The notes below the pieces were generated by a model. That model was not told the DNA's origin and did not search any database. It saw only the letters and a program-made list of their open reading frames with translations. A DNA stretch of 64,000 bases from Cenococcum geophilum (taxonomy: Eukaryota): contig CP158635.1 of the NCBI GenBank assembly GCA_050273025.1, positions 13,392,001 to 13,456,000 of the forward strand, given 5' to 3'. Of the stretch, positions 15,809 through 64,000 are shown one piece after another; position 1 is the stretch's first letter, and each line of letters begins with the position of its first letter. A program made the translations under genes and the position numbers.

Positions 15809-16742
15809 GGAACTCTTGGTGGAAGCTAGAGACCAGGCTTTTGTTCGCTTCCTCAGCGGTGTTTCAGCATCGAGACTGTGGTTGCCGTGATCGCTGGAGC
15901 AGCGCCGTGGGAAGTCTGGGAACTAGGAGGCGCACCCTAGATTAGACTACTAGGGCGGATATCGGTGGAGCAGGGAAGTGGAGTTAATTACAGCATCAAT
16001 AGCAAACGCTCAAGTCAATAGCGCAGTTGCTGCGGGGATTGCGGTGGTTCTATGTACTCGGCTTTCCGGAGGAAGTGCATGGTCAAGGTATGGGGAGGGA
16101 GCACGGCCGACCAACTCGTCTCGCATCCCGACCGCCACTACTAGAGGAGAGTAAACTTTACCAACTTTACAGACGATTAGGGGCCCGAAGGGGGGCAGGC
16201 CTGCAGCAATACGTTTCCAAAAAGGGCTTTGCGTGGCGTGCAGGGTCAGCGGTTGAACCTGATGCTTGGGGGAGGGGGGAATGCGGCGCCGGTAAAAGAA
16301 AGGATTGGCGCTCAAAGACCCCATGCCGCCTGGCCCGCTATGCAGCGTCGTGAACCTGCGCCAGCAAGAGTCTTCAGGGCCCGGGCGAGTCAGACTGGAG
16401 AGTCGTTAATAACGCGGCAGAGCTGCCAGGGCCACGCAGAGGAAGCATCGCCACGGCTTCGGCTTGCCATGCAGCGACGCCTGGAAACTCAACACCCAGA
16501 TGGCATCTCGTCAAAGACTCTTGCCGCCAAGGTAGTCTCTGCAGCGCGAGTCGTCTAAGCTACCTAGTCGGCGCGGCGAGTCAGGCCGCAGCTTGCTCCC
16601 AAGCACCTCCTTCGCGCGGACCGATCGTCTTCTTCGCAGCGTGGGAAAAGCAGGGACCGCAGCAAGACCCCAAAGAATGGCATTTTGACTTTCTCACCAC
16701 CACGCAGTCGGTTAGTCGCACCGTCTTCCATCCTTATCGTCT

Positions 16743-17870
16743 AACGCTTATCTCATGGAGAATGGGGGTGGAGCACGTGCGTACTGCTCCCTATTACCCC
16801 CTGAATTCTCAGAGAAGCGTCTGAGAGCTTCCCGTCACAAAATCAAACCACCAAACTAGCAACTCTATATACAGTAAAAACTCTTTAGTACGATATTTGA
16901 TTATAACGATATACTCTGTATTATAATCTACATCTCTTAATCAAACCTTTTTTTAGTATATTTTACGATAAACTGACTTCTAATGATATCTTTAAGTTCC
17001 TGCCACCAAAATCGATATAACCAGAAGAAATATTTTATGGAAGGGAAGCTATTTGGCCCTTTAAGGTAGATACCCTATGCCCTTTTCGGACTACCTTCTT
17101 TTTCCTGCTTATTAACTCAACACATGACTTTATGTATAGCAATACCTTGGTATAACGATACGTACAACCCGTATCATACTGACTAGTTTTTACTGTACGT
17201 ACTATTACAACACTGCCAAACCTCACCACCTTTTCCACATCTAAGTATCTTAAAAATACCACGAGGTAAAAGGCCTTTAGCTTCTCTACCTACTCTACGT
17301 AGTAGCTACGTTATAGCTATCTTATATCAAACATTAGATATCCCTTCGGCTGGTAAAATGGGTCCTACGGTTATCCATAAGTACCGGCCAATAGAATCAA
17401 TGAGATCAAGCCCCCGTGATCATACGCGTACTTTTGATTCTGGCGTTCGCGCACGGTCCAATTATCGTAGAACCCTACCGGCCGAAGGGCTATGTAATTA
17501 GTGAAAATGCGTTTTAAAATTTAAGTTATTTTCTATAACGTTATATCTTGTCTTTTAATAATACTTTATAAGGATATAATCTATATAAGGATAATAGTTA
17601 CTTAAAGAATCTAATATACTAAAAAAAACATAGATATACCTATTATAGTTAGAGCATAATTTGCAAAAAGGAAATTTATTTATTTATAAAACTTTTATTT
17701 AACACTAGTAAAAGCGACGCCCATAAGCTCAGACGCTGTGTTGAAGAATTTGAAATATAGGGAGCAGATATGAGCGATTTTCTGGCGTGCCTGCCCCGTA
17801 ACCAAATGCGAGCTGATCTAACTGAGTTCGGCTAAAACTCTAATACGGAGCGTCCGATAATCTAACGCAA
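16743..17870 (-). mobile_element. Non-autonomous 1.1-kb repeat with hairpin-capped ends (copy Y), inverted homolog of 51822-52945
   Basis: The reverse complement of 17190-17730 aligns by eye with 51984-52370 (e.g. AGAGAAGCTAAAGGCCTTTTACCTCGTGGTATTTTTAAGATACTTAGATG vs AGAGAAGACAAAGGGCTTTCAGCTCGTACTATTTTAGAGATAATTAGATA). Terminal hairpins lie at 16743-16821 and 17732-17854. Outer boundaries are approximate. Confidence 0.65.
17341..17490. mobile_element. 150-bp MITE with bulged TIRs and TA TSD
   Basis: TA|TCCCTTCGGCTGGTA-AAAT-GGGTCCTACG ... CGTAGAACCC-TACCGGCCGAAGGGC|TA. It is absent from the homologous position of the copy at about 52230. Confidence 0.8.
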
Positions 17871-22900: not shown

Positions 22901-23062
22901 TATGTGTATACGCGTGACACACTACTATTGGGTCCCCGCTATATTCCTAATAGCCTCTATACATACCTCTGCTAAGTATACCCCCTATATACACCTAGGT
23001 AGCCACCTTATTTTTTACCCTTTCTTATATCCTCCCTACCTAGGAAGACACCAAAACAACAG

Positions 23063-23690: not shown

Positions 23691-23774
23691 AAGCCACACG
23701 ATAACCGTTTAAACGACCAGCCAGCGAACACGATAAACGATTCAATCGATCGATTAAATCAAGGTAACATAGAC

Positions 23775-23960
23775 AGGTAGGCACAGATAGGTAGGCATAA
23801 ATAGGTAGGTATAGACGGGTAGGTATAGACAGACAGACAGGTAGGTAGGTAGGTAGGTAAGTAGGTAGGCAGGTAAGTAGGCAGGTAGGTAGGTAGGCAG
23901 GTAGGTAGGCAGGTAGGTAGGCAGGTAGGCAGGCAGGCAGGCAGGCAGGTAGGTAGGTAG
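23775..23960. repeat. (AGGT/AGGC)n tetranucleotide microsatellite
   Basis: Directly visible. Confidence 0.95.
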
Positions 23961-28410: not shown

Positions 28411-31400
28411 TTATTATTATTTGTTCTATTTATTGCCCGATTCGGTCCCTTTTCAGGTCCATGCAGGCTACTACCTATCTATGTAGGAAAAGAATCCCTA
28501 TAAGGGGAAAAACCTAGGTATTTCCTTTCAGCTAGTCTTACGCGCTCCGCCTTCGCCTAGCTAGTGTATCCTTGTGTCTTATAGTCTACCTTACGTACCA
28601 TGCTTCCTAGGTATATCGGAAGATCTAGGGGGAGGGAGTAGTGGGAGGGTCTGGCGATTTGCTAGTGTGCCGCCTATGGCTAGGCGGGGGGTAACCAGTC
28701 GCTAAGGGGCTGGAAAGGGGTGTATCCTGTAGTGTCCTCCTATTAGATCTTATATGCTATTTAGAACTGCTAGAGGATTCCTTGTCCTATAAGCTATTTT
28801 GCTACTATATATAGGCCCCTCCTTATAGAGAGCATCTGGGTAATATTATTTATGCCTACGCTAGTAAGTAGCTAGTCCCTTGCTAAGCGGTGGCTGCAGA
28901 ATAGCAGTATATAGCGTACTAACTAAGTGGGCCATCCGCATGTACATTAAGGTATAGTATTTAGAACATAGATGCTTACGAGCCATGCGTTTAGGCCTAA
29001 GACCTCTATCTATAGTAGGAAGGCGGCTATAGATTCTACCTTTGTCAGTCCTTTATATAGGGGGAGGGTTAGTGTCAACTATGGGGTGTTCCATATGGCT
29101 ATGTCTTATGTTTTCGCTGCCTCCTTCCATTATCGCTTCCATTTAAGGTCTGCCTATCTTGCGATTAGTATAGTGGATCTCCATCTATGCTAGTAACCTC
29201 CTATCCTCTATCGCCGTTATGGCGCTCTACTAGTATGGCGCCGGGTCTTAGCCTAGTGGGCTAGTAGTTTCTACATTTCCTTTTCTCTCTCTACCGCTTA
29301 TAGGTAGAGAGCTTCCTAGCTAGTATACTTGGGCGCGGCTCTCCTTTAAGGGGCCCTCGCTTCTTATGTGAGTCTCGTTCCTCGTATACATTTTAACATA
29401 TAGCGTATTTTTTCTTTTACTAGGTGGCCTTGTACTGTAGCTGCTCTCTATATAGCAGTTATATTAATATATATGTCTAGTGGTAGAACTACCGCTTCGC
29501 GTTTTAGTACGGCGCGCGGTGTTCTCTTATAGGCTCCTATGGTTCTACGCAGGCATTAGTTTTAAAGCTTAGCTAGTGGCGCTAGGGAGCTTTTTGCTAG
29601 CACCTTGCCGCCTAGTCCTAGGCCCCACATCTAGGAGCCGTATAGTATTGTTAGCCTTATAACTGCTATATATAGTAGACGTATAAGTCTAAAAGAGGGT
29701 CCCTATATTAAGGCAATAATTTGTAATACTGCCGAGAGTGCAGCTACTCCCCTATGGGTCGCCTATGTAATATACTCGTTCCAGTTTAGTCTAAAGTCTA
29801 CCCAGACCCCTAAGATCTTAAGGGTAGCTTCTAGTTTTACTACGCAGCCCTAGATATTTACTATTAAGGCTAGGTCATTACCTACCCTTCTTTTCCTTAT
29901 AAAGTAGATAAGCTAGTATTTATCTAGTGCAAATTTGGCACCGTGTCGTTTTGCCTATATAATACACCTATTATACGCCTAGTTTAGCCTAATGCAGTTT
30001 TCTGCTGCTATATTTCTCTATAAGATTAGGTTTATATCGTTAACAAATCCTAGGGCTATTATATCCTGGCTATTATTAAATATCTCTAGTAGTTCGGATA
30101 TAAAGAAGAGGAATAGGATTAGTAAGAGGGGTAAACCCTATAAGATACCTATAGGTGTTAGTATTAACTCGCTTTTATATCCCTTAATTATAATTTTCGT
30201 AGTACGTCCTATTAGGAAGGCTTAGATAAACTTAATTATCCAGTCTAGTAGGCCCTTATTTCTTAGGATCTATAAAAGTCTCTCATATAATACGTTATTA
30301 AAGACTCTACTTAGGTCTAGGCTTAGCATAGATATAATACATCCTAGGTACGCTTGCCATACCGCGTAGACACTAAAGGTAATTAGAGAGAGGGCTAAGA
30401 GGGTTAATCGTTTCTTTCTTGCGCCTATTTATGTCCACAGTAGTAGCTCCTATGCTTCCGCCGCTTCTTATATACGTTCTATAACTATCTTTTTTAGGAG
30501 CTTTCCTAGGGTATTTTCTAGGGCAATTAGGCGGTAGCTTCCTAAAAGGGAGTAGTCTTTTTTCTTTGCCTTTCGTAAGATAACTATAGTTATTGCTTTA
30601 AAGCATTTGGGTAGTTCGCCTCTCTAAAGACAGGCGGTTGCGGCCTTAGCCAGTAGTATTACTATCGCTTCTACCACAGCTTTAATTACCTTATTTAGGA
30701 TCTTATCTAGCCCTGGCACTTTACCAATAAGAAGCTTTTATATAGCGTCCTTTATTTCTTTTGCTAATATTATATAGCTTATTTCTATAGGAGGGGGGGG
30801 GGGGTAGTTAGCCACTAATGTCCTTAAGGTCTGCTTGGCCCGCTCCTAGGAAGAACCTTTCTACTAGTATTTTAATTTTTTCCTTATTATTATTTATATA
30901 CTAGTCCTAGTCTAACCGGCGGAGTATAGGTAGGTGGGGGTCCCCTAGCGTCTCTTCAGCGGCTTACCTGCTCCACTTTAACATATACCAAAGTCCTTTA
31001 TTATATAGTTTAGTGGAGTCTATAGTAATTTCTTCTAAAAATTGGCGCCAGTTATTTCTACCCTCTTTCCGTATTACCTTCTTAAGCCTATTTTTTAGGG
31101 CCTTAAAGCTTTATTAGTAGTGGGCTTCGCCTATTACTATATACTATCACCTTACCCTCCTTACGCCCATAAGTAGCTAGGCTGCCTCTAGCAACCATTC
31201 ACGGCGGGCATGTTTGCTAGGTTTAGCTTTTAGGCAGTATTCTTCTAGGCAGTTGCCTATAGCTCTCTAGATATCTTCTAGCGATGCTTAAGGTATTACT
31301 GCTAGCCTATTAGTAATTTCCTAGGTATATTTTTCCTGGTCAAGTTTCTTAGTGGCGTATCTCTAGCGGGTTCGCTACGCTAGTGCGGCAACGTTAAGCG

Positions 31401-33931: not shown

Positions 33932-36900
33932 CCCCCCATTATAGTTGTAACAGGAATACCATAAGGATCACCCCTCTCGCCTATACTCTTCCTTTTCTTT
34001 ATAAGCAACCTGCTCGACTTCTTTAAGGAAGGGGCGACCCAGGGAATAGGCTTCGTTAACGACACAAACCTAATTATATACGGGCTAACAGCCGTAAAGA
34101 ATTACAGAACACTAGAGAAAGCCTATAATACTTATATAGAATGGGCAAAACGTTATAGAGTTTAATTTTTACTAGAGAAATACCAGCTAATCTATTTTAT
34201 AAGAAAATGTAACTAATCTATAGATCTCTAGTATATAATTCGCATTTAAGGCTTTAGGGGTTAACCAGTTTAGGGCCTAAGGGTATTAGGAGTATAGGTA
34301 AATAGCAAGCTCTAGTGGAGCGTATATACGGCGCAAGCAGCCCATAAAGGCTAAGCACAGTTTATCGCTTTATCTAGGATTATTAATTCTATATAGGGTC
34401 CATGCTTCTAGAGGTTACGCCTACTATATACAGCAGTCGTCCGGCCAACTATAATATATAGATCCAGTATTTGGGCCATTAGAGAAACTAAAAAGGGCCC
34501 CCCTAAATTACTCCTTAAACCACTTTAAAAGGTCTAAATAGCCTACCTTTAGAGTATTACAGGTGGGTATAAGCGAACGGCTATAGCACTACTTAAGAAG
34601 GAATCTAATATTCCCCCCCTATAGTTATATATTAAAGCCGCTGTAATATAAAGGATATAAAATAAACGTAACTCTAATATTATAAAGTATATTAAAACAC
34701 GCCTAAGTAAACTATAGAGGGACCCTAGGGTGCTCCGTAGGAGAATAAACCAATAACCCTAAAGTAGGGAAGAGATATTAGAGAAACAGGTAAAGAAAGC
34801 AGAAGAAAAATAGTGCCGCTTTAGGGCCTAGGCCTATATAGAGGAGAAAGGGAGACGTATAAGAGGTTAGTAAAGATAATAGTAAGATAGAGAAAGGAGC
34901 TAAAGTAGAACACGTAAGAACGCTAGGAAACTATCTACCGTAATATAATACTGGTTAGACTAACGCTAGAGAGGTAAATAGAAGTTAAAGGTATAGAGGC
35001 TAACTTAGGTAAGATAAACCTAGGCTATAGTATAGTTAACGCTATAAGGGGTAAATACCTAAGGGCTCTAAGAAGGCCTAATAAAGGTAGAAAATATAAT
35101 AATAATTTATTACTTAATGTCCGATTTGGATCCCTACTAGGCCTACGCGGACTACTCCTTATTTATATATGGGGAGAAAACTCTATTTAAGAAAAATAAG
35201 AAAACCCCGTAATCCATCTCCCCGCCTTTTAGGACTCGCCTACTTAGCGCCTACAAGTCGCCTATGGTGCTCTACTACCTTACTATTTAACCTTCTTAGG
35301 AACCACTGCTGCCGTAATAAGCCTATAGACGCGCTAGTATTATAAACTTTTACTCTACTACTATAGAGTTACTAGGGGGCACCTACTGCTCGCCCCCTTA
35401 CCTTCTATTACTATTTCCCTTATAACCTAGAACTAATTTAGCATATTTTAACTAATAAGCCACTAGGTAACCGCCTTAAGGCCTTTTTATATTAAGAGTA
35501 GTATATTATAGTTCTCTATGCCAGCTACTAAGAGTATTATTTCTTAATTAGTGCGTAGGGGGCATAGCAGTATTACGTGTTTTAGTGTCTGTCTTAGCCA
35601 GCTATATTCGCATCTTAGGCTACCTACTAGGACACCCACCCAGTAAAGCCAATCTTTTAGTCCTATTATTCCTGTTCTTAAGAGTATTGCTATTATATTT
35701 TCTGCCTTTATTAGGCCTTCTCGGAGCCCTTAGGTATTTACCCCCTATAGCGTTAACCATGCTATAGCTTAGGTTTGTCTTACCTAAGTTAGCCTCTATA
35801 CCTTTAACTCCTATTTACCTCTCTAGCGTTAGTCCAACCAGTATTATATTACGGTAGATAGTTTCCTAATATTCTTACGTATTCTACTTTAGCTCCTTTC
35901 TTTATCTTACTATTATTTTTACTAACCTCTTACACGTCTCCCTTCCTTCTCTATATAGGCCTAGGCCCTAAAGCGGCACTATTCTTCTTTTGCTTTCTTT
36001 ACCTATTTCTCTAATATCTCTTCCCTACTTTAGGGTTATTAGTTTATTCTCCTATAGGGCACCCTAGGGTCCCTCCATAGTTTACTTAGGCGTGTCTTAA
36101 TATACTTTATAATATTAGAGTTACGTTTATTTTACGTTCTTTATATTATAGCGGCTTTAATATATAACTGTAGGGGGGGAATATTGGATTCCTTCTTAAG
36201 CAGTGCTGTGGCCGTTCGCTTATACCCACCTATAATACTCTAAAGGCAGGCTATTTAGACCTTTTAAAGTGGTTTAAGGAGTAATTTTAGGGGGCCCTTC
36301 TTAGTTTCTTTAATGGCCCAGATACTAGATCTATATATTATAGTTAGCCGGATAACTGCTATATATAGTAGGCGTAACCTTTAAAAGCATAAACCCTATA
36401 TAGAATTAACAATCCTAGATAAAGTAATAAACTATGCTTAGCCTTTATAGGCCGCTTACGCCGTATATACGCTCTACCGGAGCTTACTATCTACCTATAC
36501 TCCTAATACCCTTAGGCCCTAAACTGGTTAACCCCTAAAGCCTTAAATATAAATTATATGCTAGAGATCTATAGATTAGTTGCGTTTTCTTATAAAATGG
36601 ATTAGCTAGTATTTCTCTAGTGAGAATTGGACTCTATAACATTTTGCCCACTCTATATAAGTATTATAGGCTTTTTCTAGTGTTCTATAGTTCTCTACGG
36701 CTGTTAGCCCGTATATAATTAGGTTTATATTATTAACAAAGCCTATCCCCTAGGTTGCCCCTTCCTTAAAAGAGTTAAGCAGGTTGCTTATAAAGAAAAG
36801 GAAGAGTATAGGCAAGAGGGGTAATCTTTATGGTATTCCTATTACAACTGCAATAGGGGGGCTCTGGTATCCGCTAAAGACTAGTAATATTTCTTTTTAG

Positions 36901-39900: not shown

Positions 39901-41250
39901 AGGTAATCCTTATAAAGTACTTTTATGCCAATACGTTCTCCTAGCCTATCCCCTACCCTTACGGCTCGTTCCTTTACCTATTAGTCCTTTAGGGTGACTC
40001 TAATATCTCCACTCTTAAGGTATTAGACTATAACAGCGTTATAGACCTCTTTGCGTATCTCTATAAGGACTTCTATTTCTAATTATCCCCTAAGCCCCTC
40101 TACTTATTCTGTATTTAGTCATATTATAATTATATACCCAGTTATTAACTTAAGGGGGGTAGGTTCCCTGTGCTATAAAAGCGCAGCTACGGCAGCCTAG
40201 GTGCGGTTTACCGGTAAGGGGGGGTTATACTTATTTTTAATTTTGCTTAGCCGTTAGAGGATTTAATTAAGGGTTTACTAGAGGGGCGCCTAAGGTTCGC
40301 TAGACTGGCGGAGCCATTCTACTAGCTATATTAGTTCGTTATAGCTAACGGTTACTCCCCCGCAATTCTAGATACTAGACGCGTCCAATAGGCTTTATAT
40401 TTTATTAGATGCCTTCTTAATAGAGGTATTTCCGCTTTATAGTGTGGTATTCGCCCGTCTTTATTATGGAGGGCTATTGCTAGGCGTAGTTCTAGCGGTC
40501 GCGCGCGAGTGCGAGCCACTGTCGTTTAACATGTGCCTCCCCTGCGATGCATGTATCTTAGGGGGATTCTCTAGGTGTTTTTCAGGCTTCTTTTGGTTGG
40601 TTTTGGTCTTTTTAGGCCAGGTGCAGCAAGAGCTCCAGTTCGTTCTCGTAGAAAATATAATAGTAATACTCTTAAAAACAGGAATAATAGGACTAAAAGA
40701 TTAGCTTTACTGGGTGGGTGTCCTAGTAGGTAGCCTAAGATGCGAATATGGCTAGCCAAAATAGACACTAAAACACGTAATACTGCTATGCCCCCTACGC
40801 ACCAATTAAGAAATAATGCTCTTAGCAGCTAGCACAGAGAACTATAATACACTACTCTTAATATAAAAAGGCCTTAAGGCGGTTACCTAGTGGCTTATTA
40901 GTTAAAATGTGCTAAATTAGTTCCGGGTTATAAGGGAAATAGTAATAAAAGGCAAGGGGGCGAGCAGTAGGTGCCCCTTAGTAACTCTACAGTAGTAGAG
41001 TAATAGTTTGTAATACTAGCGCGTCTATAGGCTTATTACGGCAGCAGTGGTTCCTAAGGAGGTTAAATAGTAAGGTAGTAGAGCACTATAGGCAACTTAT
41101 AGGCGCTAAGTAGGCGAGTTCTAAAAGGCGGGGAGATGGATTACGGGGTTTTCTTATTTTTCTTAAATAGAGTTTTCTCCCTATATGTAAATAAGGAGTA
41201 GTCCGCGTGGGCCCAATAGGGATCTAAATCGGACGTTAAGTAATGAATTA
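33932..41250 (+). mobile_element. 5'-truncated Tad-like LINE family b (about 1.8 kb: 33932-35101 + 40648-41250), interrupted by its own family
   Basis: TSD TTATTATAAAGACCT at 33917-33931 and 41251-41265. RT IGFVNDTN at about 34045. The 3' end is GGACGTTAAGTAATGAATTA. Confidence 0.9.
35102..40647 (-). mobile_element. Full-length Tad-like LINE family b (about 5.5 kb), inserted antisense into the truncated copy
   Basis: TSD GTAGAAAATATAATA at 35087-35101 and 40648-40662. 35104-35704 is the reverse complement of 40648-41250, and 35690-36860 of 33932-35101. APE starts YNCGNTNY at about 38780. Confidence 0.92.
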
Positions 41251-43382
41251 TTATTATAAAGACCTTATTATCCTTCCGGTATATATTAAAGTAAAACGCT
41301 ATAACGCTAATTACGGTAATATCTATAGTAGGGGGGTTGCCTAATAATAGGGGCGTATATAACTTTAGGGACTTTTAGGGTACTAGCGTTATTATTACTT
41401 CTTTTAGCTCCTATTATATCTTTTAGAGGTTATCCCTTATATCCTATTAATACGTTCTTTTCTATACCGGTTTAATCTATACGATTTAGATGTCGTCTAT
41501 ATTACTATTTATCCTACTTCTATATATAGAGTCTTTTTTAAATATAGCACTTTAGGAGAGTATCTTTATTAGTATAGAGTTCTTTTTAGCTTTGCGGCGG
41601 GCGTCTTTTTAGGTAAAGGCTAGGTTACGGGCCTAGGCATCCTACTAGTAAGTAGGGTTAGCCCTTACGGCTAGTATCTTATAGTTAGTTTAGATCTTTT
41701 TAATAAAGAAGGGTAATCTTAGTCTATCCTCCGGCTAAATAAACCGTCTTTATTATATGTTTAACTAAATATTAAAATAGGATATCCATTTTCGTTTAAG
41801 GATTATATTATAGGACTTTAGGTTTAGGATATAAAAGGGAATACCGTATTAGCGTTGTCCGTTAAGAGTAATATATAACTTTAAGACGTGGGTAATAGGC
41901 TAACTGGCTTAGCCGTTATAGCCTTTTACCTAGATAGGCTTCTCTAGTTGGATAGCTTCTGCATTTAAAAACTTGGTAATATTATTTATATAAGTAATAT
42001 TTATAAAGGCGAAGCTATTAATTTTAGTGTTAATAAGGGCGGTTATATTAACTCTATATCTATTTTAAGATACTATATATAAAACCGTAAAATGCTTTCC
42101 ACCTATTAACTAACTAAGATTAATCTCTTTAAGATTAATAGGGTACCCTAGGGGGGAGTCTTTCCCTAAGGTTCTTTTTTTCCTAACTTATTAGACCTTT
42201 TTTCTTCCTTTATTTCCTTAATATCGCCTATATCCTTTAGCTCCGGGCAGGATAAGATAAAGTAACCCTACTTATTGTAGTTGTAGTACGTAGCTAAGGT
42301 AGGGTTAATTAGAGTATTATGGTAAATACTAGTTAATAGCGTAGTACGTAACTAGTTAGGCGAGGCTTGCTAGTATATAGTTATAACCGCCTTTAGTATA
42401 AGAGTAATTATAACTTATCTTCCTGCTCTAGCTCCTATATATATAGCTAGCGAGTTTTAATTATTACGGAGTCGCTTCTACTAATTAGGGCAGGCGTTAA
42501 TCTGCTTTAATTCTAAGTTTAATAATAGGTAATAAGCTGCGAGTTTTTCGTGGGTTAGTAAGTTATTTAAGGTTATAGTAATCTTTTCTTATAGCTAGAT
42601 TGTTAGCTTATTATATAGGTCTAATTAGTAGTTCTTAAGGGGAACCTAGCCTTCTCCTATAAGGTATAGGAATTAAGTTTAAAATTTGGTAAAGGGTTAG
42701 TTTAGTTTTATTATTAGGCGATTATAGTTATAACGGGCATCCTATACTTTATTTGGGTTAATATAGATAGCCACTAGGTGCCGTATTATCTTGTTAATAG
42801 ATATAAATTAGATAGGGGAGTCGTCCTTAAACTTAGCTTAAAGGTGCCGTTAGGCGTCCCCAGTAGTTCGACTAAAGAGGTAGAGCATTTTAGCTTCTTT
42901 AGAAAGGAAATAGTTGTAGTTAATATAGAGCTTTCCTTATACTTAAATGCTCTAATTCTTAAAGGTAGGGTCTATCTTATTAGATAGTAGTAGGGGGTTA
43001 AGGAGCCTAATAGACTTTAATTACTTTATTATTGTATCCGTACTCCCTAGTATATCGTATTTAGTAAAGTAAATAGGTTAGCTAGGGCTTTAAAAAGGAG
43101 AAGCTGGGCTATTTTATAGGGCCGTAAGGCTTTCTAGAATCTCTTATAGGGTCTCTTATATATTTCTTACTTTAAGATAATTAGCTTTCTAGCTAGCTAT
43201 AAGGGCGTAAATCTACTCGCGTATATCTACGATATTATTATTGTCTTTAATTTCTAATCCTAATTAGATCTTAGGTTCCTCTTATGTAAAGGTAGCTCTC
43301 TTAGATAAACTTACTTTAGGTACTATCGTTAGCTTTTTAAGGTTTATTAGTATTATATACTTTAGTTTTAATTCCGGGGGTA

Positions 43383-49373: not shown

Positions 49374-51223
49374 TTATTCTCCAACCTCACGGTCTTCATC
49401 CCAGTGTGCTAGGCTCTTCACAAAGCCCCAACGCCATGTTTTATGCCGGATTGTTTTCCCGAAGAAATACATGGGGATCGCGCACAGTATCACTCCTCCA
49501 GAAATTCCAGCCATCGCTCCGAATGCCCGGGAATAGCCTGACTCAGCAATCCAAGGGTTGGTGTAAAATGATAGGAGGAAGCCAAAAGCAGCTAAAGAGA
49601 AGATTAGGTATCTACGCCTGTAATATATAGGCACGACTTACACTTAAATGCTAGTTGAGTTACGGTAATCTCACCCGCTACAGGTCGGTACGAGTCGATA
49701 GTATAGACCAAGGTTACATTTGTAGCTTGAACAATGCTAAATGTCACTGTAGCATATGATTAGCGCAAATTCCACCAAGGAGAAAAAGCGTACTTACAAA
49801 GACCTAAGCCAATCGTTGGAACTATCCAAGGCAGACCTTTACCAATTCCAACCCCATACAAGACCAAAGCCAAAGGCGCGGTGATGACACTAATGGCAAT
49901 AGCAGGAAGCCGCATCTCTGGCTCCCTGATTCCACCGTTTCTTCGGGTGAAGAAATCGGCCACAGAATCGGAGAATGCGCCGCCTAGGTAGATGGCAATG
50001 AGGGAACCGATTATGGAAGCAATAAAACATAATCCTGATTGCCATGCCTTGAAACCGTAAGTTGACTGGAAGGCAGTGGCAAAGTTTGACGATATTGCCA
50101 CAAGGAACCCTATAGTGACAGACATGACGAGCGTTGCCCAAAGCACGGGAGGGAGGCACAAAAGGATAACTGGACGGATGAATAACTTCCACAGAGATTC
50201 TTGGGTGCATTTCGTGGTGAACACACGCAGGCTTTGAACGTAGGAACGTTTCACAGACTGTGGACCTTCGAGACTTTCTACTAGTTTTACGTCGTTCCTT
50301 TGTTTCAAGTCTTCTGGTACTTTCTCATTGACGTGAGGCTCGAATGCTGCTGCAGGTCCCGAAATAGAGTCTATTCGACTATAATTAGTCTCCGGAAAGG
50401 TAAAGACGATGAGAATGGTGGTAGCTCCAATCAATGCAACTGCTACCCAGTAGATCATGCGCCAATCATGCTTGATCGTGATCAAGCCAGCAATGATGAT
50501 TCCGCCACTAACACCTGCTGTCAGTGCCGCAGTATAAAGCCTAGACAAAGTCAGCACAATGGTATAGTGCGCCGACAATATCGACTTCTTACGCCATGAC
50601 CAGACCCCGCTCGTGCAAAAAGAATAGGTCAGCGATGGTCAGAGGAGCAAGACACTCAGCAGCACCACTAGCAAATCCCATAATTATTCTTGCTGCTAAC
50701 TCGCTTCCGTAGGACGTGGCGCCGCCGGCCCAAGCAGCAACAGCAGTGTATAAAATGAAAGCAGAGACGTATGCCGGCCGACGACCATATTTGACGATTA
50801 CTGGCATCCAAACAAGATTTCCCATGCCCTGTAATAAGGCGGTAGTTGTAAAGAAGTAGGCGACATGGGCAATCTTTGAAGCGAAATCCAACCCAGGCGG
50901 GCCTTCAAATGTTATTGTTACGTCTACAATCGCGACAGTAGGTCCAGCGGCCAGGAAGTTGGAGAAAAAGATAGCGAAACAGACTAGAGTAGCAATATAG
51001 TACCTATACGGTGTGGCCCTGCACAATGTAAGAGCGTCTCCTACAAAAAATATGTTTAAAGGGTGATATCGCGTACTCACCAGTTGAGCGGGTCATTGGG
51101 ATCATCTGAAGGAGTAGGAACCAAAATGATCTCGTTTGTCTGATGATGCCGTAGTCGAAGGCTACCCAAAGTACCCAGCTTCCCAGCATCAGACGCGTCC
51201 CGTTCTGTTGTCTTCTTCACCAT
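49374..51223 (-). CDS. MFS transporter, HOL1-like (DHA1 family); about 5 exons, intact
   Basis: MVKK...ILVPTPSDDPNDPLNW, KYGRRPAY, ARIIMGFASG, TIADLFFLHERG, WRMIYW, FPETNY and REPEMRL, with multiple TM segments and GT-AG introns. No RIP-type stops seen. Confidence 0.92.
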
Positions 51224-51821
51224 TTTGCTGATTGAAAGCCCTATATCAACAGCTGACGCATCTGCGGGGGGTTAAGGACGGACTGGAGGAATAGGCGACG
51301 GGATGCAATGACATTTAAAGATCACCGCGTCGACTGGCTAACAACAGGCAGGGATGGTCAATATAGTGTCGTTGGACAATTTAATAGATGCATCGCAACC
51401 AGCAAAATACGAACGGTATACGGACAGGGATGGAGTGGGCACCCGAGCGGCTGATTCATGAAAGTACCGGAAGAGCGCTAGTGCAGCGGCGTTAGAGACC
51501 GAAAGCGGTTCGCAGTGCGGGACCCCATGGGTATTGACTCATTCTCGGGAGCATCTTCAAGCCATCTTGGGTTGCTGGCGGAGATTATGGTCTCTGCGTG
51601 TACCCGTTGTCGAAATATTCCTCGTCAAGAGTGGTCAAATAGGGTGGACATGACACATGGGGCTGCGTGGCGGCAGCATGGCTTTTTGCGTCTACCCGGT
51701 CTGTCCGGTGCAGCTATCTCCAATAATGCGTCCACCACGCGTCGACAGTGTGCAAAAACCACCTAAATTCAATGCTGTGCGGGCGGGGCTCGCTTAATTG
51801 AATTTTCGCAATTAGTCGTTT

Positions 51822-52945
51822 ACGTTATCTCATAAATCCGACGCTTCGCAGAAGATTCAGGTGACTTAGGGCAACGCACGGGCTGCATACTAACTCCTGC
51901 GAACTCCTAGACCAATCAGAACCGTGAACTAGTTTCAGCCCCCTGCGTACCCCCTGTCACCAGCAAATCTTCTGCGAAGTGTCTAAGAGCTTATAGGCGT
52001 CGTTTTGGTATAAACTGAATGTTTTAAAAATCGAATTTTGTATATTTCTACGAGCGACATCCTAACCGCGAGATTTATTATATATTTTATTGATGCAATA
52101 GATTCTTTAGGTAATTGTATCTCCATTTATATAAATTATACCCCCCTACTAGGAATACTAAGGGGCGAGATATATCGTCGTAGAACGTAAGTTAGATTTC
52201 TAAAATGAATGTTTAACTAAAACCAACCGACTACCTATATCCAACTTCTTATAAAATAGAGCTACAATATTTCTATAATATGGAGAGAAGACAAAGGGCT
52301 TTCAGCTCGTACTATTTTAGAGATAATTAGATATAGGGAAGTATATAAGGTATGGCAGTGAGGCAGTAGGGCGAGATTGCGATTAAAACTAACTAACTAC
52401 CTATATCTAACTTCTCGTAGAATAGAGCTACGATATCGCCATAATATAGAGGCGATAGAGAAGAAAAAGGGCTTTTAGCTTGTAGTATTTTTAGAGATAA
52501 TTAGACGTAGAGAAGTATATAAGGTATAGTAGTAAAGCAAGATTGCGACCGATGAGACGAAAATGCAACTGACGAAAATACAACCGACGAAAATACGACC
52601 AACGAAAATGTGACCAACGACCGACTGCCTATATCTAATATTTTATATAATAGATAGAGAAACTAAAGAGCTCCTGCCTTATAGTATTTTTATAATAATT
52701 AGATGTTATAAAAGGGTTAAGATACAGCGTTGTAAACGAAGAGTTGTCGCCTAGTAAGAAACTTTAAGTTTGTATACAAAGGGCGCCCATAAGCTCTCAG
52801 ACTCTTACTCTTGGGGAGAATTCCTCTCGGTGTGATCTGATTGGTCCAGAGTCCACAGGACTAGGGTAAAGTCCACAAGCGTAGCGCTAGTCCTTCCACG
52901 TCGTAGCGCAGTTTCTCCCCGGGAGTCTGATTTGTGAGATAACGT
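51822..52945 (+). mobile_element. Non-autonomous 1.1-kb repeat with compound inverted ends (copy X)
   Basis: Outer IR ACGTTATCTCATAAATC (51822-51838) / GATTTGTGAGATAACGT (52929-52945). Hairpins at 51840-51983 and 52800-52927. Inner IR GAGCTTATAGGCG / CGCCCATAAGCTC. The interior has three units of about 130-170 bp and 15-bp ACCGACGAAAAT-like repeats (52548-52622). Confidence 0.75.
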
Positions 52946-53435
52946 TTACGAAACAAACTGGAATCCTTGGCATGCAGATCCCCAAATTTTGCACCCAACC
53001 TTACGTGTAAAACCGTGAGATAGCCCATTCCCACGTTAAACGCGCCTTATTATCCCCACCGCCAGTCAGTAAGTTAAAGCCGACGTCGCCCTGCTATTTG
53101 ACCTATCTTGACGCGTTTCCTAGTGTTGTAGTGCCTCGTATTAACCCTGCTCGTTGCGCGGATATCCCTTGGTATTGACTGCCCGGCTGATCCTCGGTCA
53201 GCCGAAAAATCACGTGTTCAGCCAGCCACCTGGGTCAGATTCGAGGATCTCCACAGCGCCACTAGCGCCAAGCTGAGGAGATTCGCGTATCTAGGGCCAC
53301 CCGCTGATTGAGCCGCTGATTGACCCCGACCGTAGGGTAATTAGGGGCATTAGGGCCCCAAGTGTATATAAAAAAGTCCTCCCTACCTAATCCTTGATCG
53401 CGGCAGCACGTCTGCTATTATACCTACTATATAGG

Positions 53436-53682
53436 ATGGCGCTGACTAACCGCGTAGAGATTAATATCGCTAATAATGCCGAATTACGCGCTAACGCGCA
53501 GCATGTCCTCGCCCTTACGTGCCGCAAGGCCTAAGAATATGTTTTTAACGTACGATCTAAAGCAGAAGGAGTTTAAGGTAATACCCCCCCTCTCCTAAAA
53601 GTATCGCGGCCCGTAACTAACGCGTTGTCTGGCCCTAGGCCTTCTATAAACGGAAGCAGTACTATAACAGCAATACTATTAT
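53436..53682 (+). pseudogene. 5' part of a CryptonF-like (Ndc10/GCR1-related tyrosine recombinase) gene, interrupted by Gypsy B
   Basis: MALTNRVEI...NAQHVL (frameshift) LRAARPKNMFLTYDLKQKEFK | intron GTAATA..CTAAC..TAG | AFYKRKQYYNSNTI. From memory this resembles the RPxNTxxxYxxKQxEFxxFCxxKxYxDGDTVT N-terminus of fungal Cryptons. The catalytic domain is not in the window. Confidence 0.6.
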
Positions 53683-56600
53683 TGTTACGGACGCTTTAAG
53701 TACGATGTTACGACTACTTAGAGAGGAGTCGGAGGAAGCTAGTTGGTTGATATAAGCACGGTCTAGGATAGAACCCGTGGAACCATGTGACGAGGAATGG
53801 TAAGTAGAGTCACGTGATGTAATCTGTATGATCTGTGTGATCTGCGAGATCTATAATAAAGCGAACAGAGTAGATAGAGTAGATAGAGTAATGACTTTCT
53901 TAGGAGTACAGTTATATATTTAAGGACCCACAGTCCCACCTAGATAGTTCCTTTCTTGTAGTAATTCTTAAAATATAATTGGAGTTAATCTATTAGGCAA
54001 CCACTCTACTAGTTATTATTACGTTATTAACTACTATCTTTATATTTCCTATATACCTAGCCTATTAATAGAACCTATTGTAGTTCCTGCTATAAGGTTC
54101 CGTTATATAATTACTACCTAGTTACGGTATTAAATATAAAAAGTTAAATAATATGCCACTAAAAGCAGCCACTATAACGCCATTAATAGCGGCAACTACT
54201 TTAAGGTTAGGGGGTAATACTAATATAGTAGATACTAACTCGCAATAACCTATAACGGTAGGATAATTATAAGAAATAGTGGATTAATTAATAGAAAATA
54301 ATATAGTACTTAAGAATAGACTTAATAAAATTAGAGTAGTAAAGGTTAAGTTACTATTAATTAAACAATTCTTAGGAGAAAGATTAAAGCTTAAAGGATT
54401 TCTAACGTAAATGCATTTTAAAGTCATGCAAGAAGGGGCTAAGTTAGCCACGATAATGGACCAGATAGCCTATATAGGACTATTCCTAACGGGTTAGGCA
54501 CTTAAATAGTTTAAACCCTACTTAATAAAAATATAGACTAACGGAATAACTACTGCCAATTAAGAGGTACGATTTATGTTTTCTAGTTAGGTAGGATTTG
54601 CGGAATAATTAATATAGATATTTAGGGACCTAGAAGCAATAACTATAGTAAAGAGAAAGCTTTAGGACCTAATATAGTAAACTTTAGTAATTAAGTATTA
54701 TTAATTCTATTTATCGCCCGATTCGGTCCCTTTTTAGGTCCATATAGGCTTCTACCTTCTATATATAGGAAAAACCCCCTAGGGGGGAAAACCTAGGTAT
54801 ATCCTTTCAGCTAGTCTTACGCGCTCCGCCTTCGCCTCGCCTGTGTACCTTTATATAATGTCTACCTTATGTACTATGCTTCTAAGGTGTCTTAAAAGAT
54901 CTAGGGGGTAGTAGGAGGGTTTAGTGATTCGCCAGCGTGCCGCCTTTAACTAGGTAGGGGGTGTCCAGTCTCTAAGGGACTAAAAGGGGGCGTATCCTTT
55001 AGTGTCCTCCTGCTAAATCTCATTTACTATCTAGAACTACTAAAGGACTCCTTAGCTTATAAGCCATTGTGCTACTATATATAGACCCCTACTTATAGAG
55101 AGCATTTAGGTAATATCATTTATGCCTACTCTAGCGAACAACTAGTCTCTTATAGTGCGTTGGTTGCAGAAAAGTAGTATATAGCGTACTAACTATATAG
55201 GCTATCCGCACGTATAGTGTGGCGTAATATTTAGGACATAGATACTTACTAGCTATGTATTTAGCCCTAGGACCTCTATCCTTAATAGGAAGGCGGCCGT
55301 AAATTCTACCTTCGTCTATCCTTTATATAGGGGGAGAGTTAGTATTATCCATGGGGTGATCTATATAGCTACCCTCTGTGTTTTTACTACCTTCTTCTAT
55401 CGTTAGTTCCACTTAATATCTGCCTATCTTACGATGCATATAGTAAATCTCCACTTATACTAGTGGCCTCCTATCCTCTACTGCCGTAGTAGCGCTCCGC
55501 TGGCGTGGCGCTGGGTCTCCACTTAGTGTTATAGTAGCTCCCGTATTTTCTGTTCTTTCTCTACCGTATATAGGCGGAGGGCTTCCTAGCTTATAAGCTT
55601 GGGCGCATTGCCCCTCTAGGGGGCCCTTACTCCTCATATACGATTAAGTATTTAGTATATATCCTTCTCCACTGGGTGGTCTTATACTATAGCTGCTCTC
55701 TATATAGCAATTATGTCTATATATATATCTAGTGGAGGTACTACTACTTCGCGTTCTAGCGCGGCACATAGTGTCCTCTTATAGGCCCCTGTAATTCTAC
55801 ATAGGCATTAGTTTTATAGTTTAACTAGTGGCTCTAGGGAGCTTTTTGCTAGTGGCTTGCCTTTTAGGTCCACGCCCCAGATCTAGGCGCCGTATAGCAT
55901 TGTTGGCCTTACTACAGCTGTGTATAGTAGTCGTATGCGTCTAAATAAGGGTCCCCAGGTCAAGGCTGCGATACGCGATATCGCTGCGCCAGGATATATT
56001 TGCATTGCAGAGCTACAAGAGTTACATACAAAGCAGAGTTGCGGAGGCCCTCTTGCCAGGGCCCTCTACCATAGTTTTCCACTTCGGACGCCCACACGCC
56101 TATCTGCTTCCACAGCAGCCAGCCAACCAAAACCAGCCACTGCCTATATGCACCTGATTTGCTCTATAAGCCTATCCTTACAGCCTACCCCTGCCTAAAT
56201 AGACCAATACGCACGTCCGTCCTTTCGGGCTATACAAACAGTGGTATTAATAAGGTGTTAATCCTTCCTCTAAAATAGGTCCACTAGGAGTCAGAGCCCA
56301 GTAAAGGGGTAAGGTTCCTAGAGTCGTCCGTTGCTGCCATTATATACCACGCCCTACAGCTGTCGCTGCTTCGCGTTACCTATAACGCTCTCGCAACAAT
56401 AGGCCGACCGTATCTTACAGGCGTAGGCCCATAATAACTCAACGCCGCGCAGCTATCGTCCCTCAGCCACCTACTAACCAAACTTATTGTCCTCCCATCT
56501 TAACCAACACCTGCATCTAAGTCCGTTCTAGCCTATCCCGTAGGTCTATTCTAGGTCCATTCTAAGTCCGTTCCGTAGGATTAACGTCATAGGATTAACG

Positions 56601-62600: not shown

Positions 62601-64000
62601 GACCACGTTAGACTAGGACCTTTTAAAATTATACAGAGAATTTCACCAGTCACGTTTAAGTTAAACCTACTAGCTAAAATAAAGATCTACCCTATATAGC
62701 ATATCGCGATAATAGAACTAGCATATAGGAATGTCAAGCTACTAGTTTATAAGGCAGACACATACAGAGGTTAGGAAGAAGATAAATAGCAAGTTTTAAG
62801 GATTATTAGTTATAAGGACATTAACAATAAAACATAGTATAAGGTTAAGTAGATAGGCTATACTAAGACTACCTAGGAGCTACTAGAGAATTTAAAGAAT
62901 ACTATAGAAAAGGTATAGGAGTATCGGAAGAAAACAGGTTAGGCAACATTAATAAAGAGGAATCGCTAAAGAATAAGTCACCTAAGGGGGACCTAGAAAG
63001 AGCGACTGCCAAACTACTTAAAGTTATTTCCTTCTCTATTAGAAGAGAATCTATTCTTTTATTACTAAGTTCCTACAGACCTTATTCTATAAGCTTCTAC
63101 TCCTTAAAACAAACTTTTTTATAAACTTTCTTAAGACGAATTAGTTAAGTAGACGTAGTAAGACGAGAATTAAGAGCCCGTTGTTAAGCATTAGTAGCCT
63201 TTTTTTTAGCGTTATATAAACGATAAAGTTCCGCCAAAGTAACGGACAACTTATTATTAAGTTTTATAGTAGTAAATTAAACACAAAACCCTATAATAAA
63301 TTACTTAGGGAACTTAGAGACTACTAAGAGTTATAGGACGCGTATACTTAGCGTTAGAAACCGAGCGAATATTATAAGACGATTAAACGTTTGCTCTAGT
63401 GTACTCTAAATAAGAGGAAGGTTGCTAGGACGAAGGACTTACTAACGTAATATAAACTAACCCCTCTTTCGTACAATAAGAACACGGAGATAGTATTACT
63501 TCACTAAGTAATAGTATGGAAGAGACTATATACATATAACAAAGAGTTAAAGAAGAAGAAGGTACTTTAGGTATTATAAGTAACAATATTAACCAAATTA
63601 ATTAGACGAATATTATACCTCTAGTAAACAACTTAGAGATGCTAGGTATCTTTAAGGATAAAGATAAAGAGAAGGGAGATAGTGTTACGGACGCTTTAAG
63701 TACAATATTATAACTACTTAGAGAGGAGTTAGAGGAAGCTAGTTGGTTAATATAAGCACGGTTTAGGATAGAACCCGTAGAACTATGTAACGAGGAATGG
63801 TAAGCAGAGTTACGTAATGTAATCTATATAATCTATATAATCTGCGAGATCTATAATAAAGCGAATAGAGTAGATAAAGTAGACAGAGTAATAACTTTCT
63901 TAAGAGTATGGTTGTGTATTTAAGGACCCATAGTCCCTACCTAGATAGTTCCTTCCTTATAGTAATTCTTAGAATATAATTAGAGTTAATCTATTGGGCA
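53683..64000 (+). mobile_element. Ty3/Gypsy chromovirus B, RIP-inactivated; 3' LTR cut by the window end
   Basis: 5' LTR 53683-54107 (right boundary inferred from the terminal IR). The 3' LTR starts at 63683 after the PPT AAGATAAAGAGAAGGGAGATAG. Gag from about 54153, Zn knuckle at about 57530, protease LIDSRA (=DSGA) at about 59680, RT VYLNN (=YLDD) at about 60640, then RNase H, integrase (QTDG*TER ~62190) and chromodomain (~62780-62930). Confidence 0.95.
54699..57057 (-). mobile_element. Chimeric retroposon: 3' 1.3 kb of LINE family a fused to about 1.07 kb of unrelated 5' sequence
   Basis: TSD TTAGTAATTAAGTAT at 54684-54698 and 57058-57072. 54699-~55988 aligns with 28411-~29735. 55990-57057 has no visible LINE homology and is less RIP-mutated. 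Confidence 0.85.

What the first reader, a model, noticed from the sequence alone, without database searches (positions are those of the whole stretch)
51822..52945. Repeat family whose four ends each carry a different long hairpin beside a conserved box
Seen: two diverged copies (X 51822-52945; Y 16743-17870, inverted) share internal sequence. Read outside-in, each end is a stem-loop closed by a GACGC/GACTC-like stem, then T, then GAGCTT (GAGCTTATRGGCG at three of the four ends). The stems differ but each is self-complementary: GACGCTTCGCAGAAGATT/AATCTTCTGCGAAGTGTC (51840-51983), ACTCTTGGGGAGAA/TTCTCCCCGGGAGT (52800-52927), ACGCTT.TCTC..GAGAAT/ATTCTC.GAGAAGCGT (16743-16821) and a weaker GACGCT/AGCGTC stem (17732-17854). 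Both X hairpins hold GACCAATCAGA. No clean TSD is visible. Inference: structure rather than sequence is conserved, which suggests recognition as folded single-stranded DNA (by analogy with integron attC or HUH substrates) rather than as ordinary DDE TIRs. I cannot assign it to a named superfamily.
Basis: partly seen in the sequence, partly recalled or inferred. Interest (0 to 1): 0.75.

Follow-up and report, generated by a model that had tools for sequence, protein, structure and literature searches.

The report
Hairpin-ended non-autonomous fungal DNA transposon
These are two decayed, gene-less copies of a cut-and-paste transposon in a fungal genome whose ends each carry a conserved fold-back stem; full-length relatives encode a RecQ-like helicase and a DUF6589 protein, so it is an unusual variant of a little-studied known transposon group, not a new kind of element.

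Summary
Both copies have short terminal inverted repeats (TTATCTCA...) and perfect 8-bp target-site duplications (TSDs): X is 51825-52942 and Y is 16748-17860.

One scan of metagenome contigs gave 111 further unique ends. Every end type has the same modules:
- an 18-nt terminus;
- a stem whose base is always TCAGAC/GTCTGA, closing a 60-190-nt loop;
- an inner box, GAGAGCTTATGGGCG.

Stem arms differ between left-type and right-type ends yet stay complementary (77% Watson-Crick in register against 31-39% when slid). Ten of 16 positions show double-sided changes.

The single-strand/HUH (rolling-circle-type nuclease) reading is not supported. Twelve of 12 complete elements have 8-bp TSDs. Two TSD-bounded 8.6-kb relatives with the same ends carry a RecQ-like helicase gene and a DUF6589 gene. 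I read DUF6589 as the transposase and the group as AcademH-like, although AcademH is reported to make 9-10-bp TSDs.

X and Y are non-autonomous derivatives with RIP-like (repeat-induced point mutation) decay. I infer, without proof, that the stems bring the two conserved boxes together. Moderately interesting; a new variant of a known kind.

The parts
51817..51824 (+). X, left copy of the 8-bp target-site duplication, CGTTTACG
   Evidence: Identical to 52943-52950. Only a length of 8 fits.
51825..51842 (+). X, left terminal inverted repeat, TTATCTCATAAATCCGAC
   Evidence: Matches the reverse complement of 52925-52942. It is the family's terminus in 110 of 112 ends.
51840..51983 (+). X left fold-back (type A): arms 51840-51857 and 51966-51983, loop between them
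   Evidence: 17 of 18 arm positions are complementary. DNA fold z -5.8. 39 type-A ends (X's left end among them) share this stem.
51902..51920 (+).
   Evidence: Found in the same outside-in direction in 38 of 39 type-A and 42 of 45 type-B ends, and in 0 of 24 type-C/D ends.
51981..51999 (+). X left inner box, GTCTAAGAGCTTATAGGCG
   Evidence: This pattern retrieved more than 135 metagenome loci.
52000..52783 (.). X interior: AT-rich and non-coding, with an internal duplication of about 170 bp
   Evidence: Direct repeats D13 and D19. No ORF of 90 aa or more. Homologous to the interiors of many loci.
52784..52802 (-). X right inner box, GTCTGAGAGCTTATGGGCG on the minus strand
52800..52927 (-). 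X right fold-back (type B, with a 5-nt insertion in the inner arm)
   Evidence: Arms shown. Other copies lack 5 nt at 52808 (table 4). 45 type-B ends in loci.
52925..52942 (-). X right terminal inverted repeat, TTATCTCACAAATCAGAC on the minus strand
52943..52950 (+). X, right copy of the 8-bp target-site duplication, CGTTTACG
16740..16747 (+). Y, one copy of the 8-bp target-site duplication, TCTAACGC
   Evidence: Identical to 17861-17868.
16748..16837 (+). Y end related to type C. The terminus TTATCTCA is kept, the outer arm is lost, loop motif 2 lies at 16783-16794, and a truncated box lies at 16819-16830.
16838..17711 (.). Y interior: AT-rich and non-coding, partly homologous to the X interior
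17712..17860 (-). Y end of type D. About 9 nt of the terminus is deleted (TTATC-GGACGC), loop motif 2 lies at 17757-17768, and the box lies at 17718-17734.
   Evidence: The fold is not significant (z -0.2).
17861..17868 (+). Y, second copy of the 8-bp target-site duplication, TCTAACGC

Best explanation
X and Y are dead, gene-less (non-autonomous) members, about 1.1 kb long, of a family of cut-and-paste DNA transposons in a fungal genome. The family inserts with an 8-bp target-site duplication.

Each end is built from four modules:
1. an 18-nt terminus, TTATCTCAYRAATCAGAC;
2. a 21-23-bp inverted-repeat stem whose base, TCAGAC/GTCTGA, is invariant and whose remainder is specific to the left (types A, D) or right (types B, C) end;
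3. a 60-190-nt loop carrying a family-specific motif;
4. an inner box, GAGAGCTTATGGGCG, followed by about 15 more conserved bases.

Shown: full-length elements of 8.6 kb with the same ends and matching 8-bp TSDs carry two inward-facing genes. A RecQ-family helicase gene lies next to the left (A) end. A gene next to the right (B) end is homologous to an 880-aa DUF6589 protein.

Inferred:
- DUF6589 is the DDE-type transposase, and the group is the helicase-bearing Academ lineage (AcademH) or a close relative.
- X and Y were moved in trans by these proteins.
- The stem brings the terminus and the inner box side by side, so that the transposase sees one composite site whatever the loop length. This happens either by strand fold-back once the helicase has opened the end, or by protein-mediated looping.

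Both window copies are now decayed by RIP-like transitions. Y has damaged termini and is probably immobile.
For: TIR, TSD and boundary:
- Searches show them in the window.
- 12 of 12 complete elements have 8-bp TSDs: 8 perfect, 3 with a single G/A difference, 1 with three differences. Flank controls shifted by 8 nt show 5-8 mismatches.
- Conservation starts exactly at TTATC.

Family size:
- In four sequencing runs the element region is covered by many contigs, while the left flank is single-copy.

Modular ends:
- Classes are A 39, B 45, C 7, D 17 and unclassed 5, out of 113 ends.
- The stems appear in the class consensus sequences.
- Loop motif 1 occurs only in A/B ends and loop motif 2 only in C/D ends.

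Pairing:
- The closing stem is present in 108 of 113 folds.
- 77% of cells are Watson-Crick in register, against 31-39% when slid. Ten of 16 positions show double-sided changes.
- An end's arms match arms of its own class far better than arms of the opposite end type: A-A 13.1 of 15 against A-B 7.6, and B-B 11.4 against B-A 6.7.

Long relatives:
- L029/L030 is 8661 bp and L051/L052 is 8633 bp, each with a matching TSD.
- The helicase start lies 726 nt inside the A end. tblastn finds it beside A ends in 7 loci plus one distant locus.
- The intact relative P0153 is RecQ-like. Its best solved-structure hits are RecQ, WRN and RECQ5, with E-values down to 7e-19.
- The gene at the B end matches P0162 (73%) and P0167, which carries DUF6589 at residues 379-779.

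Literature (passages seen):
- AcademH elements encode a helicase and occur in fungi and animals (PMC10045372; PMC10799480).
- DUF6589 clusters lie in Basidiomycota, Mucoromycota, Mollusca and Cnidaria, some with a PHD finger.

RIP-like decay: C>T and G>A dominate the differences among copies (table 1).
Against: - AcademH is reported to make 9-10-bp TSDs (passage in PMC10045372). Here the TSD is 8 bp in every case.
- No tool result shows that DUF6589 is a transposase. Pfam calls it a family of unknown function. Sequence searches of solved structures found nothing. The AlphaFold model was unusable, with mean pLDDT 41. The acidic motifs I point to (YDNFNF, HGDQLT, LEHNNG) are only my reading.
- I hold only about 1.4 kb from each end of the 8.6-kb elements, so another gene could lie in the unseen 5.8 kb.
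- For a folding role: loops of 60-190 nt make spontaneous cruciform extrusion from duplex DNA unlikely (general knowledge).
- The type-B master stem carries a standing C/A mismatch (49 of 113 ends at position 3).
- Within type A, variation mostly breaks pairs. Only 2 of 24 predicted pairs show a compensated change.
- The covariation rests on few independent splits (left against right, B against C, A against D), so the cell counts overstate the number of events.
- No filled/empty site pair was found.
Confidence: 0.62

Rival explanations
1. The inverted arms are simply two copies of a protein-binding site on duplex DNA. A dimer of transposase, helicase or a host protein binds both and loops out the DNA between them. 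The strands never fold, and the pairing potential is a by-product.
For: - The arms are conserved as sequence across the two families: A resembles D and B resembles C, with cross-matches of 10-11 of 15 for A/D.
- The arms are specific to the left or right end, as binding sites that mark end identity would be.
- Long loops disfavour cruciforms (general knowledge).
- The B stem tolerates a standing mismatch.
Against: - Left-type and right-type arms differ at about half their positions (6-7.6 of 15 matches), yet the same proteins must act at both ends.
- The stem base abuts both conserved boxes with no spacer in all four classes. That is what a junction needs and a pair of operators does not.
Confidence: 0.25
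2. The stems are functionless relics of an ancestral palindrome inside a long terminal repeat. They are kept alike by hairpin-templated repair or gene conversion, not by selection.
For: - Within-class variation is mostly uncompensated RIP-like decay.
- D-type stems look like A-type stems with two uncorrected mismatches.
- Y's ends have lost parts of the stems.
Against: - The architecture, with an identical stem base, has persisted in four end types and two families while loops and arms changed.
- The G-to-T and neighbouring changes that separate C from B are present in both arms of each copy examined.
- 20-bp repeats are short for gene conversion (general knowledge).
Confidence: 0.1
3. One reading: the ends are recognised as folded single-stranded DNA by an HUH-type or integron-like enzyme (as in IS200/IS605, Helitron or attC), not by a transposase acting on inverted repeats.
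For: - Subterminal hairpins are conserved in structure.
- A helicase is encoded by the long relatives. Helitrons also pair a nuclease with a helicase.
Against: - 8-bp TSDs and terminal inverted repeats are present in 12 of 12 complete elements. By established knowledge, IS200/IS605 elements and Helitrons make neither.
- The helicase is RecQ-like (superfamily 2), not the Pif1-like helicase of Helitrons (recalled).
- There was no Rep/HUH hit in Pfam scans of the held parts.
- Targets are diverse, not one fixed short site.
Confidence: 0.02
4. X and Y are MITE-like derivatives of a hAT or Mutator-like element. The helicase/DUF6589 elements merely share or have borrowed the same ends.
For: An 8-bp TSD is the classic hAT length (established knowledge). 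Long, imperfect terminal modules of 100-230 bp recall Mutator-like elements.
Against: - There was no hAT or MULE domain in any held interior.
- The target profile is weakly S-N-T-A-T-A-N-S, not the hAT nTnnnnAn (the hAT consensus is recalled).
- The termini do not start with the hAT YARNG (recalled).
- Two independent 8.6-kb copies have TSD-matched A and B ends around the helicase and DUF6589 genes. The helicase sits at a fixed 726 nt from the A end in 5 loci.
Confidence: 0.05

Closest known systems
AcademH lineage of the Academ superfamily (Kojima 2020, Mobile DNA 11:15; the paper is not held, and I know it only through passages in PMC10045372 and PMC10799480 and from recall of its abstract)
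   Same: - TIR-bounded eukaryotic DNA transposons of fungi and animals that encode a helicase with DEAD and Helicase_C domains beside the transposase.
- The long relatives here have exactly that gene pair.
- DUF6589 has the same fungi-plus-animals spread, sometimes with a PHD finger. The PHD sublineage of AcademH is recalled.
   Different: - The TSD is 8 bp here against the 9-10 bp reported for AcademH.
- I could not test the identity of DUF6589 with the Academ transposase.
- AcademH is described as low-copy in fungi (PMC10799480 passage), whereas this family has abundant non-autonomous derivatives.
- I do not know whether hairpin-split ends have been described for AcademH.
piggyBac ends (terminal repeat, spacer, subterminal inverted repeat) and Sleeping Beauty IR/DR ends (recalled knowledge; piggyBac papers appeared only in the listing)
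   Same: Each end has two conserved protein-recognition blocks, one outer and one inner, separated by a spacer. Left and right ends are asymmetric.
   Different: - Their spacers are fixed and are not self-complementary. Here the spacer is a stem-loop of variable length whose stem abuts both blocks.
- The TSDs differ (TTAA and TA).
- Neither system encodes a helicase.
hAT-derived MITEs of fungi
   Same: 8-bp TSD, short terminal inverted repeats, no coding capacity, many copies, and insertion near genes.
   Different: No hAT target or terminal signature (signatures recalled). The long relatives carry helicase plus DUF6589 rather than a hAT transposase.
IS200/IS605 elements and Helitrons/Helentrons (single-strand HUH transposition with subterminal hairpins)
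   Same: Subterminal stem-loops whose structure matters more than their sequence. Helitrons also encode a helicase.
   Different: By established knowledge those elements have no TIRs and make no TSDs. This family has both in every complete copy.
KolobokP composite-like transposons (Kojima & Bao 2022, PMC9587614; abstract read)
   Same: Long terminal modules that have their own short inverted repeats.
   Different: - The KolobokP modules are direct repeats and occur as excisable solo units.
- Here the modules are inverted.
- I found no solo modules: 0 pairs of opposed termini within 40-600 bp in 134 loci plus the window.

Membership tests
AcademH (Academ superfamily) | Encodes an Academ-type DDE transposase | tested here: inconclusive
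   The gene at the B end is homologous to DUF6589 proteins. I had no Academ reference sequence to compare. Searches of solved structures found nothing and the AlphaFold model was unusable.
AcademH (Academ superfamily) | Encodes a helicase in addition to the transposase | tested here: met
   A RecQ-like helicase with DEAD and Helicase_C domains lies 726 nt inside the A end of the long relatives. X and Y themselves carry no gene.
AcademH (Academ superfamily) | Target-site duplication of 9 or 10 bp (passage in PMC10045372) | tested here: not met
   8 bp in 12 of 12 complete elements. Lengths of 6, 7, 9 and 10 fail for X and Y.
AcademH (Academ superfamily) | Terminal inverted repeats | tested here: met
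   An 18-nt terminus is shared by both ends and by all four end types.
hAT superfamily | 8-bp TSD | tested here: met
hAT superfamily | hAT transposase (with dimerisation domain) in autonomous members; target nTnnnnAn (recalled) | tested here: not met
   No hAT Pfam domain in the held parts of the long elements. Target positions 2 and 7 show no T/A preference among 112 flanks. The middle 5.8 kb of the long elements was not seen.
HUH single-strand transposons (IS200/IS605, Helitron) | No TIRs and no TSD; insertion next to a fixed short sequence | tested here: not met
   TIRs and 8-bp TSDs are present and the flanks are diverse.
HUH single-strand transposons (IS200/IS605, Helitron) | Subterminal hairpins needed for recognition | tested here: inconclusive
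   Hairpin potential is conserved. Whether it is used cannot be told from sequence.
MITE / non-autonomous TIR element | No coding capacity, TIRs, TSD, many copies, ends shared with a longer coding element | tested here: met
   At about 1.1 kb the elements are larger than most elements called MITEs.

The most novel reading that the evidence does not exclude
The stems are working DNA fold-backs. The element's own RecQ-like helicase opens the transposon end and each strand snaps into a hairpin. This abuts the 18-nt terminus and the inner box into one composite site, which the DUF6589 transposase then cuts. That would be a structure-dependent, helicase-assisted step inside a eukaryotic cut-and-paste pathway that still makes TSDs. 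It would explain why this lineage carries a helicase at all.
Probability: 0.18. Interest if true: 0.8.

Novelty: new variant of a known kind. Interest (0 to 1): 0.5.

Why it matters
- Helicase-bearing Academ-type transposons are among the least studied eukaryotic DNA transposons, and nobody knows what the helicase is for.
- This family offers a concrete, testable idea. Its ends consist of two conserved boxes split by a covarying stem-loop of variable length, and its partner encodes a RecQ-like helicase.
- It links Pfam's DUF6589 to TSD-bounded mobile elements.
- It shows that the group can spawn abundant non-autonomous derivatives that land near genes. X lies about 730 bp from the end of the MFS transporter reading frames at 49763-51092.
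- For genome annotation, it gives a signature (TTATCTCA... with an 8-bp TSD) for a repeat family that would otherwise stay unclassified.

Tried and rejected
- No whole genome is held for the window. The metagenome records behind the loci cannot be searched or extended, so the middle 5.8 kb of the 8.6-kb elements stayed unseen.
- Earlier-findings look-ups by sequence and by place gave nothing.
- Read laying on 50600-53600 in four runs gave no contig that joins across X, so there is no empty site. In two runs the flank contigs stop matching at 51757, 67 nt before X. X appears to sit inside another repeat that starts near 51760-51790.
- The 7.2-kb and 7.3-kb TSD-matched elements (L024/L025, L053/L045) are not autonomous copies. 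They are X-type elements with a nested Ty3/gypsy-type insertion, shown by Tf2-type SH3 domain hits in both and a chromodomain hit in L053.
- ORFs next to short C/D-type ends are ordinary host genes such as Sec6, WD40, ADH and neurochondrin.
- The search for longer relatives of the RIP-damaged B-end reading frame found nothing. A three-copy profile was needed.
- The AlphaFold2 model of P0167 from a 7-row alignment had mean pLDDT 41, so I ran no fold search on it.
- Profile and single-sequence searches of PDB sequences with DUF6589 gave 0 hits.
- The Atlas search restricted to named families gave no usable hit.
- MAFFT of mixed end types puts a gap in the B arms. I therefore counted pairs with an anchored script instead of with the count of structure pairs.
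- Solo terminal modules (the composite-transposon idea): none found.
- Nested-MITE origin of the hairpins: rejected, because the sequences flanking each stem are inverted, not direct.
- Searches of paper full text for four end motifs gave 0 papers.
- The AcademH paper itself is not held.
- L037 is a chance match to the box, with no terminus motif.

Full report
**Setting.** The window is fungal. Its GC-normal parts hold split reading frames for a P450, a CAP59-type mannosyltransferase, an M48 peptidase, a VWA/PH/RING protein and an MFS transporter. Long AT-rich blocks full of repeats lie between them. No whole genome is held for it.

**The observation.** X and Y share diverged internal sequence. 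X is bounded by TTATCTCATAAATCCGAC and its inverted partner TTATCTCACAAATCAGAC, and it is flanked by CGTTTACG on both sides. Y is flanked by TCTAACGC on both sides. Only a length of 8 gives identity. The elements are therefore X 51825-52942 (1118 bp) and Y 16748-17860 (1113 bp).

The conserved box is exact at three ends and truncated at the fourth. Folding as DNA against dinucleotide shuffles gives z -5.8 (X left), -3.9 (Y at 16748), -1.1 (X right) and -0.2 (Y at 17860). Y's termini are damaged: one has lost about 9 nt and the other has lost its outer arm.

**More copies.**
- Laying the contigs of four public runs on 50600-53600 shows a single-copy left flank up to about 51790.
- From there on, many contigs match at 80% or better. 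Their differences are dominated by C>T and G>A, as RIP (repeat-induced point mutation) would give.
- No contig bridges an empty site.
- In these loci, 122 ends have a terminus within 40-330 nt of a box. Of these, 113 are unique, counting X's two.
- Conservation begins exactly at the first T of TTATC (110 of 112), and the flanks are diverse. The target preference is a weak S-N-T-A-T-A-N-S, not the hAT pattern.

**Target-site duplications.**
- Seven complete elements show 0, 0, 0, 0, 1, 1 and 3 mismatches in the 8-bp flanks.
- Four long elements show 0, 0, 0 and 1.
- Y shows 0.
- Flanks shifted by 8 nt, as a control, show 5-8 mismatches.
- The three single mismatches are all G/A.

**Anatomy of the ends.** The ends fall into four types: A (39, like X left), B (45, like X right), C (7) and D (17, like Y's 17860 end), with 5 unclassed. 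All share three features:
- the terminus;
- a stem that always starts TCAGAC and ends GTCTGA;
- the inner box directly after the stem.

Consensus arms:
| Type | Arm after TCAGAC | Note |
|---|---|---|
| A | GCTCCGCAGAAGATTT | perfect 22 bp including TCAGAC |
| D | GCTCCGT.G.AGAATTT | |
| B | CC(CC/TT)GGGGAGAAATT | |
| C | CCTCGGTGGA, then a bulge, then CGTTGG | |

Loops are 60-190 nt. Loop motif 2 (ACTGCTCCCTAT) is in 6 of 7 C and 16 of 17 D ends and in no A or B end.

So the arms mark the left (A, D) against the right (B, C) end, and the loops mark the family (X-type against Y-type). Complete elements pair A with B (X, L012, L078 and others) and D with C (L036).

**Is the pairing more than chance?**
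- 89 of 113 ends have at least 11 of 15 complementary positions, while shuffled arms reach at most 9.
- 108 of 113 minimum-energy folds contain the closing stem, and 88 have z below -2.
- In register, 77% of cells are Watson-Crick pairs, against 31-39% with the partner slid by 1-3 nt.
- 10 of 16 positions carry two pair types that differ on both sides, against 2-7 when slid.
- The changes separating C from B (GGTGGA against GGGGAGA) are in both arms of the copies examined.

Against over-reading this evidence:
- The events are few: left against right, B against C, A against D.
- Within type A most variation breaks pairs. Only 2 of 24 predicted pairs show a compensated change.
- The B stem keeps a standing C/A mismatch.

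**The coding relatives.** Four pairs of opposed ends several kb apart have matching 8-bp TSDs.
- The two pairs of 7.2-7.3 kb are X-type elements with a nested Ty3/gypsy-type insertion.
- The two pairs of 8661 and 8633 bp are different. Reading their RIP-damaged interiors with X at stops gave a weak DEAD-box hit next to the A end.
- A full HMMER search then gave 689 relatives with E below 1e-3. Those scanned have only DEAD and Helicase_C domains.
- An intact 779-aa relative, P0153, matches 7 loci beside A ends. It starts 726 nt from the terminus in five of them, and its best solved relatives are RecQ, WRN and RECQ5.
- Next to the B end a second frame reads inward. A profile of three copies found intact fragments P0162-P0166.
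- P0162 in turn found P0167, an 880-aa protein of *Verruconis gallopava* (an ascomycete), with DUF6589 at residues 379-779. tblastn carries the match into the start of that domain.
- The window itself holds no copy of either gene.

**What DUF6589 is.**
- Pfam gives no function.
- PDB sequence searches found nothing.
- The AlphaFold model was unusable, with mean pLDDT 41.
- The Atlas places DUF6589 clusters in Basidiomycota, Mucoromycota, Mollusca and Cnidaria, some with a PHD finger, and finds no named neighbour.
- Passages in two papers say that AcademH transposons of fungi and animals encode DEAD/Helicase_C helicases and make 9-10-bp TSDs. The AcademH paper itself is not held.
- Three earlier reports of this scan, in other genomes, also read helicase-plus-DUF6589 elements as AcademH-type. 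One of them has bipartite TIRs and an 8-bp TSD. These are unchecked notes and not independent proof.
- I therefore file the family as AcademH-like. The TSD length does not meet the published description, and I have not tested whether DUF6589 is the Academ transposase.

**Mechanism.**
- Shown: TIRs, 8-bp TSDs, modular ends with covarying stems, and long relatives that carry a RecQ-like helicase gene and a DUF6589 gene.
- Inferred: DUF6589 is the transposase, and X and Y were moved in trans.
- Also inferred: the stem serves to bring the terminus and the inner box together whatever the loop length. This could happen by fold-back after helicase unwinding or by protein looping.
- The HUH/single-strand reading fails on the TSDs and TIRs.
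- I found no description of these end motifs in 8.4 million full texts. Repbase and Dfam could not be consulted.

Noticed in passing
window 51760-51824 and 52951-53600: X appears to be nested in another repeat. Contig cover rises above single-copy level from about 51760-51790 and stays high to the right of X. In two runs of a related organism the flank contigs stop matching at 51757.
   Followed up: partly
window 21380-23980: Large arrays of degenerate tandem repeats with periods of 12 and 20 nt (AAGCTCTATATA-like), followed by a (CAGG/TAGG)n array. Long spurious ORFs run through them on both strands.
   Followed up: no
window 33932-36860 and 40650-41258: A 1175-nt inverted repeat (91% complementary, arms 579 nt apart), with a further 609-nt arm 5 kb away (94%). 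These are probably RIP-affected copies of another element.
   Followed up: no
window 28415-29683 vs 54696-55935; 53680-53999 vs 63680-64000: Dispersed repeats of 78-91% identity. The second pair lies almost exactly 10,000 nt apart.
   Followed up: no
window 51902-51920 and 52838-52848: The loop motif contains GACCAATCAGA, which looks like a CCAAT box (recalled consensus for the HAP/NF-Y complex). X lies about 730 bp from the end of the MFS transporter reading frames (49763-51092, minus strand), so it could supply promoter elements.
   Followed up: no
L013 1-200 / L014: Two elements of the family lie back to back, only 9 nt apart. The right end of one has an almost completely deleted hairpin.
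   Followed up: no
L056 (A end at 1401-1595): The long, helicase-bearing element whose A end belongs to the same sub-lineage as X's left end (shared GCTTCGCAG arm variant). Its helicase remnant is 58% identical to P0153, so X's own sub-lineage has a coding form.
   Followed up: partly
L053 and L025 interiors: Ty3/gypsy-type retrotransposon remnants are nested inside X-type elements (Tf2-type SH3 domain in both, chromodomain in L053).
   Followed up: partly
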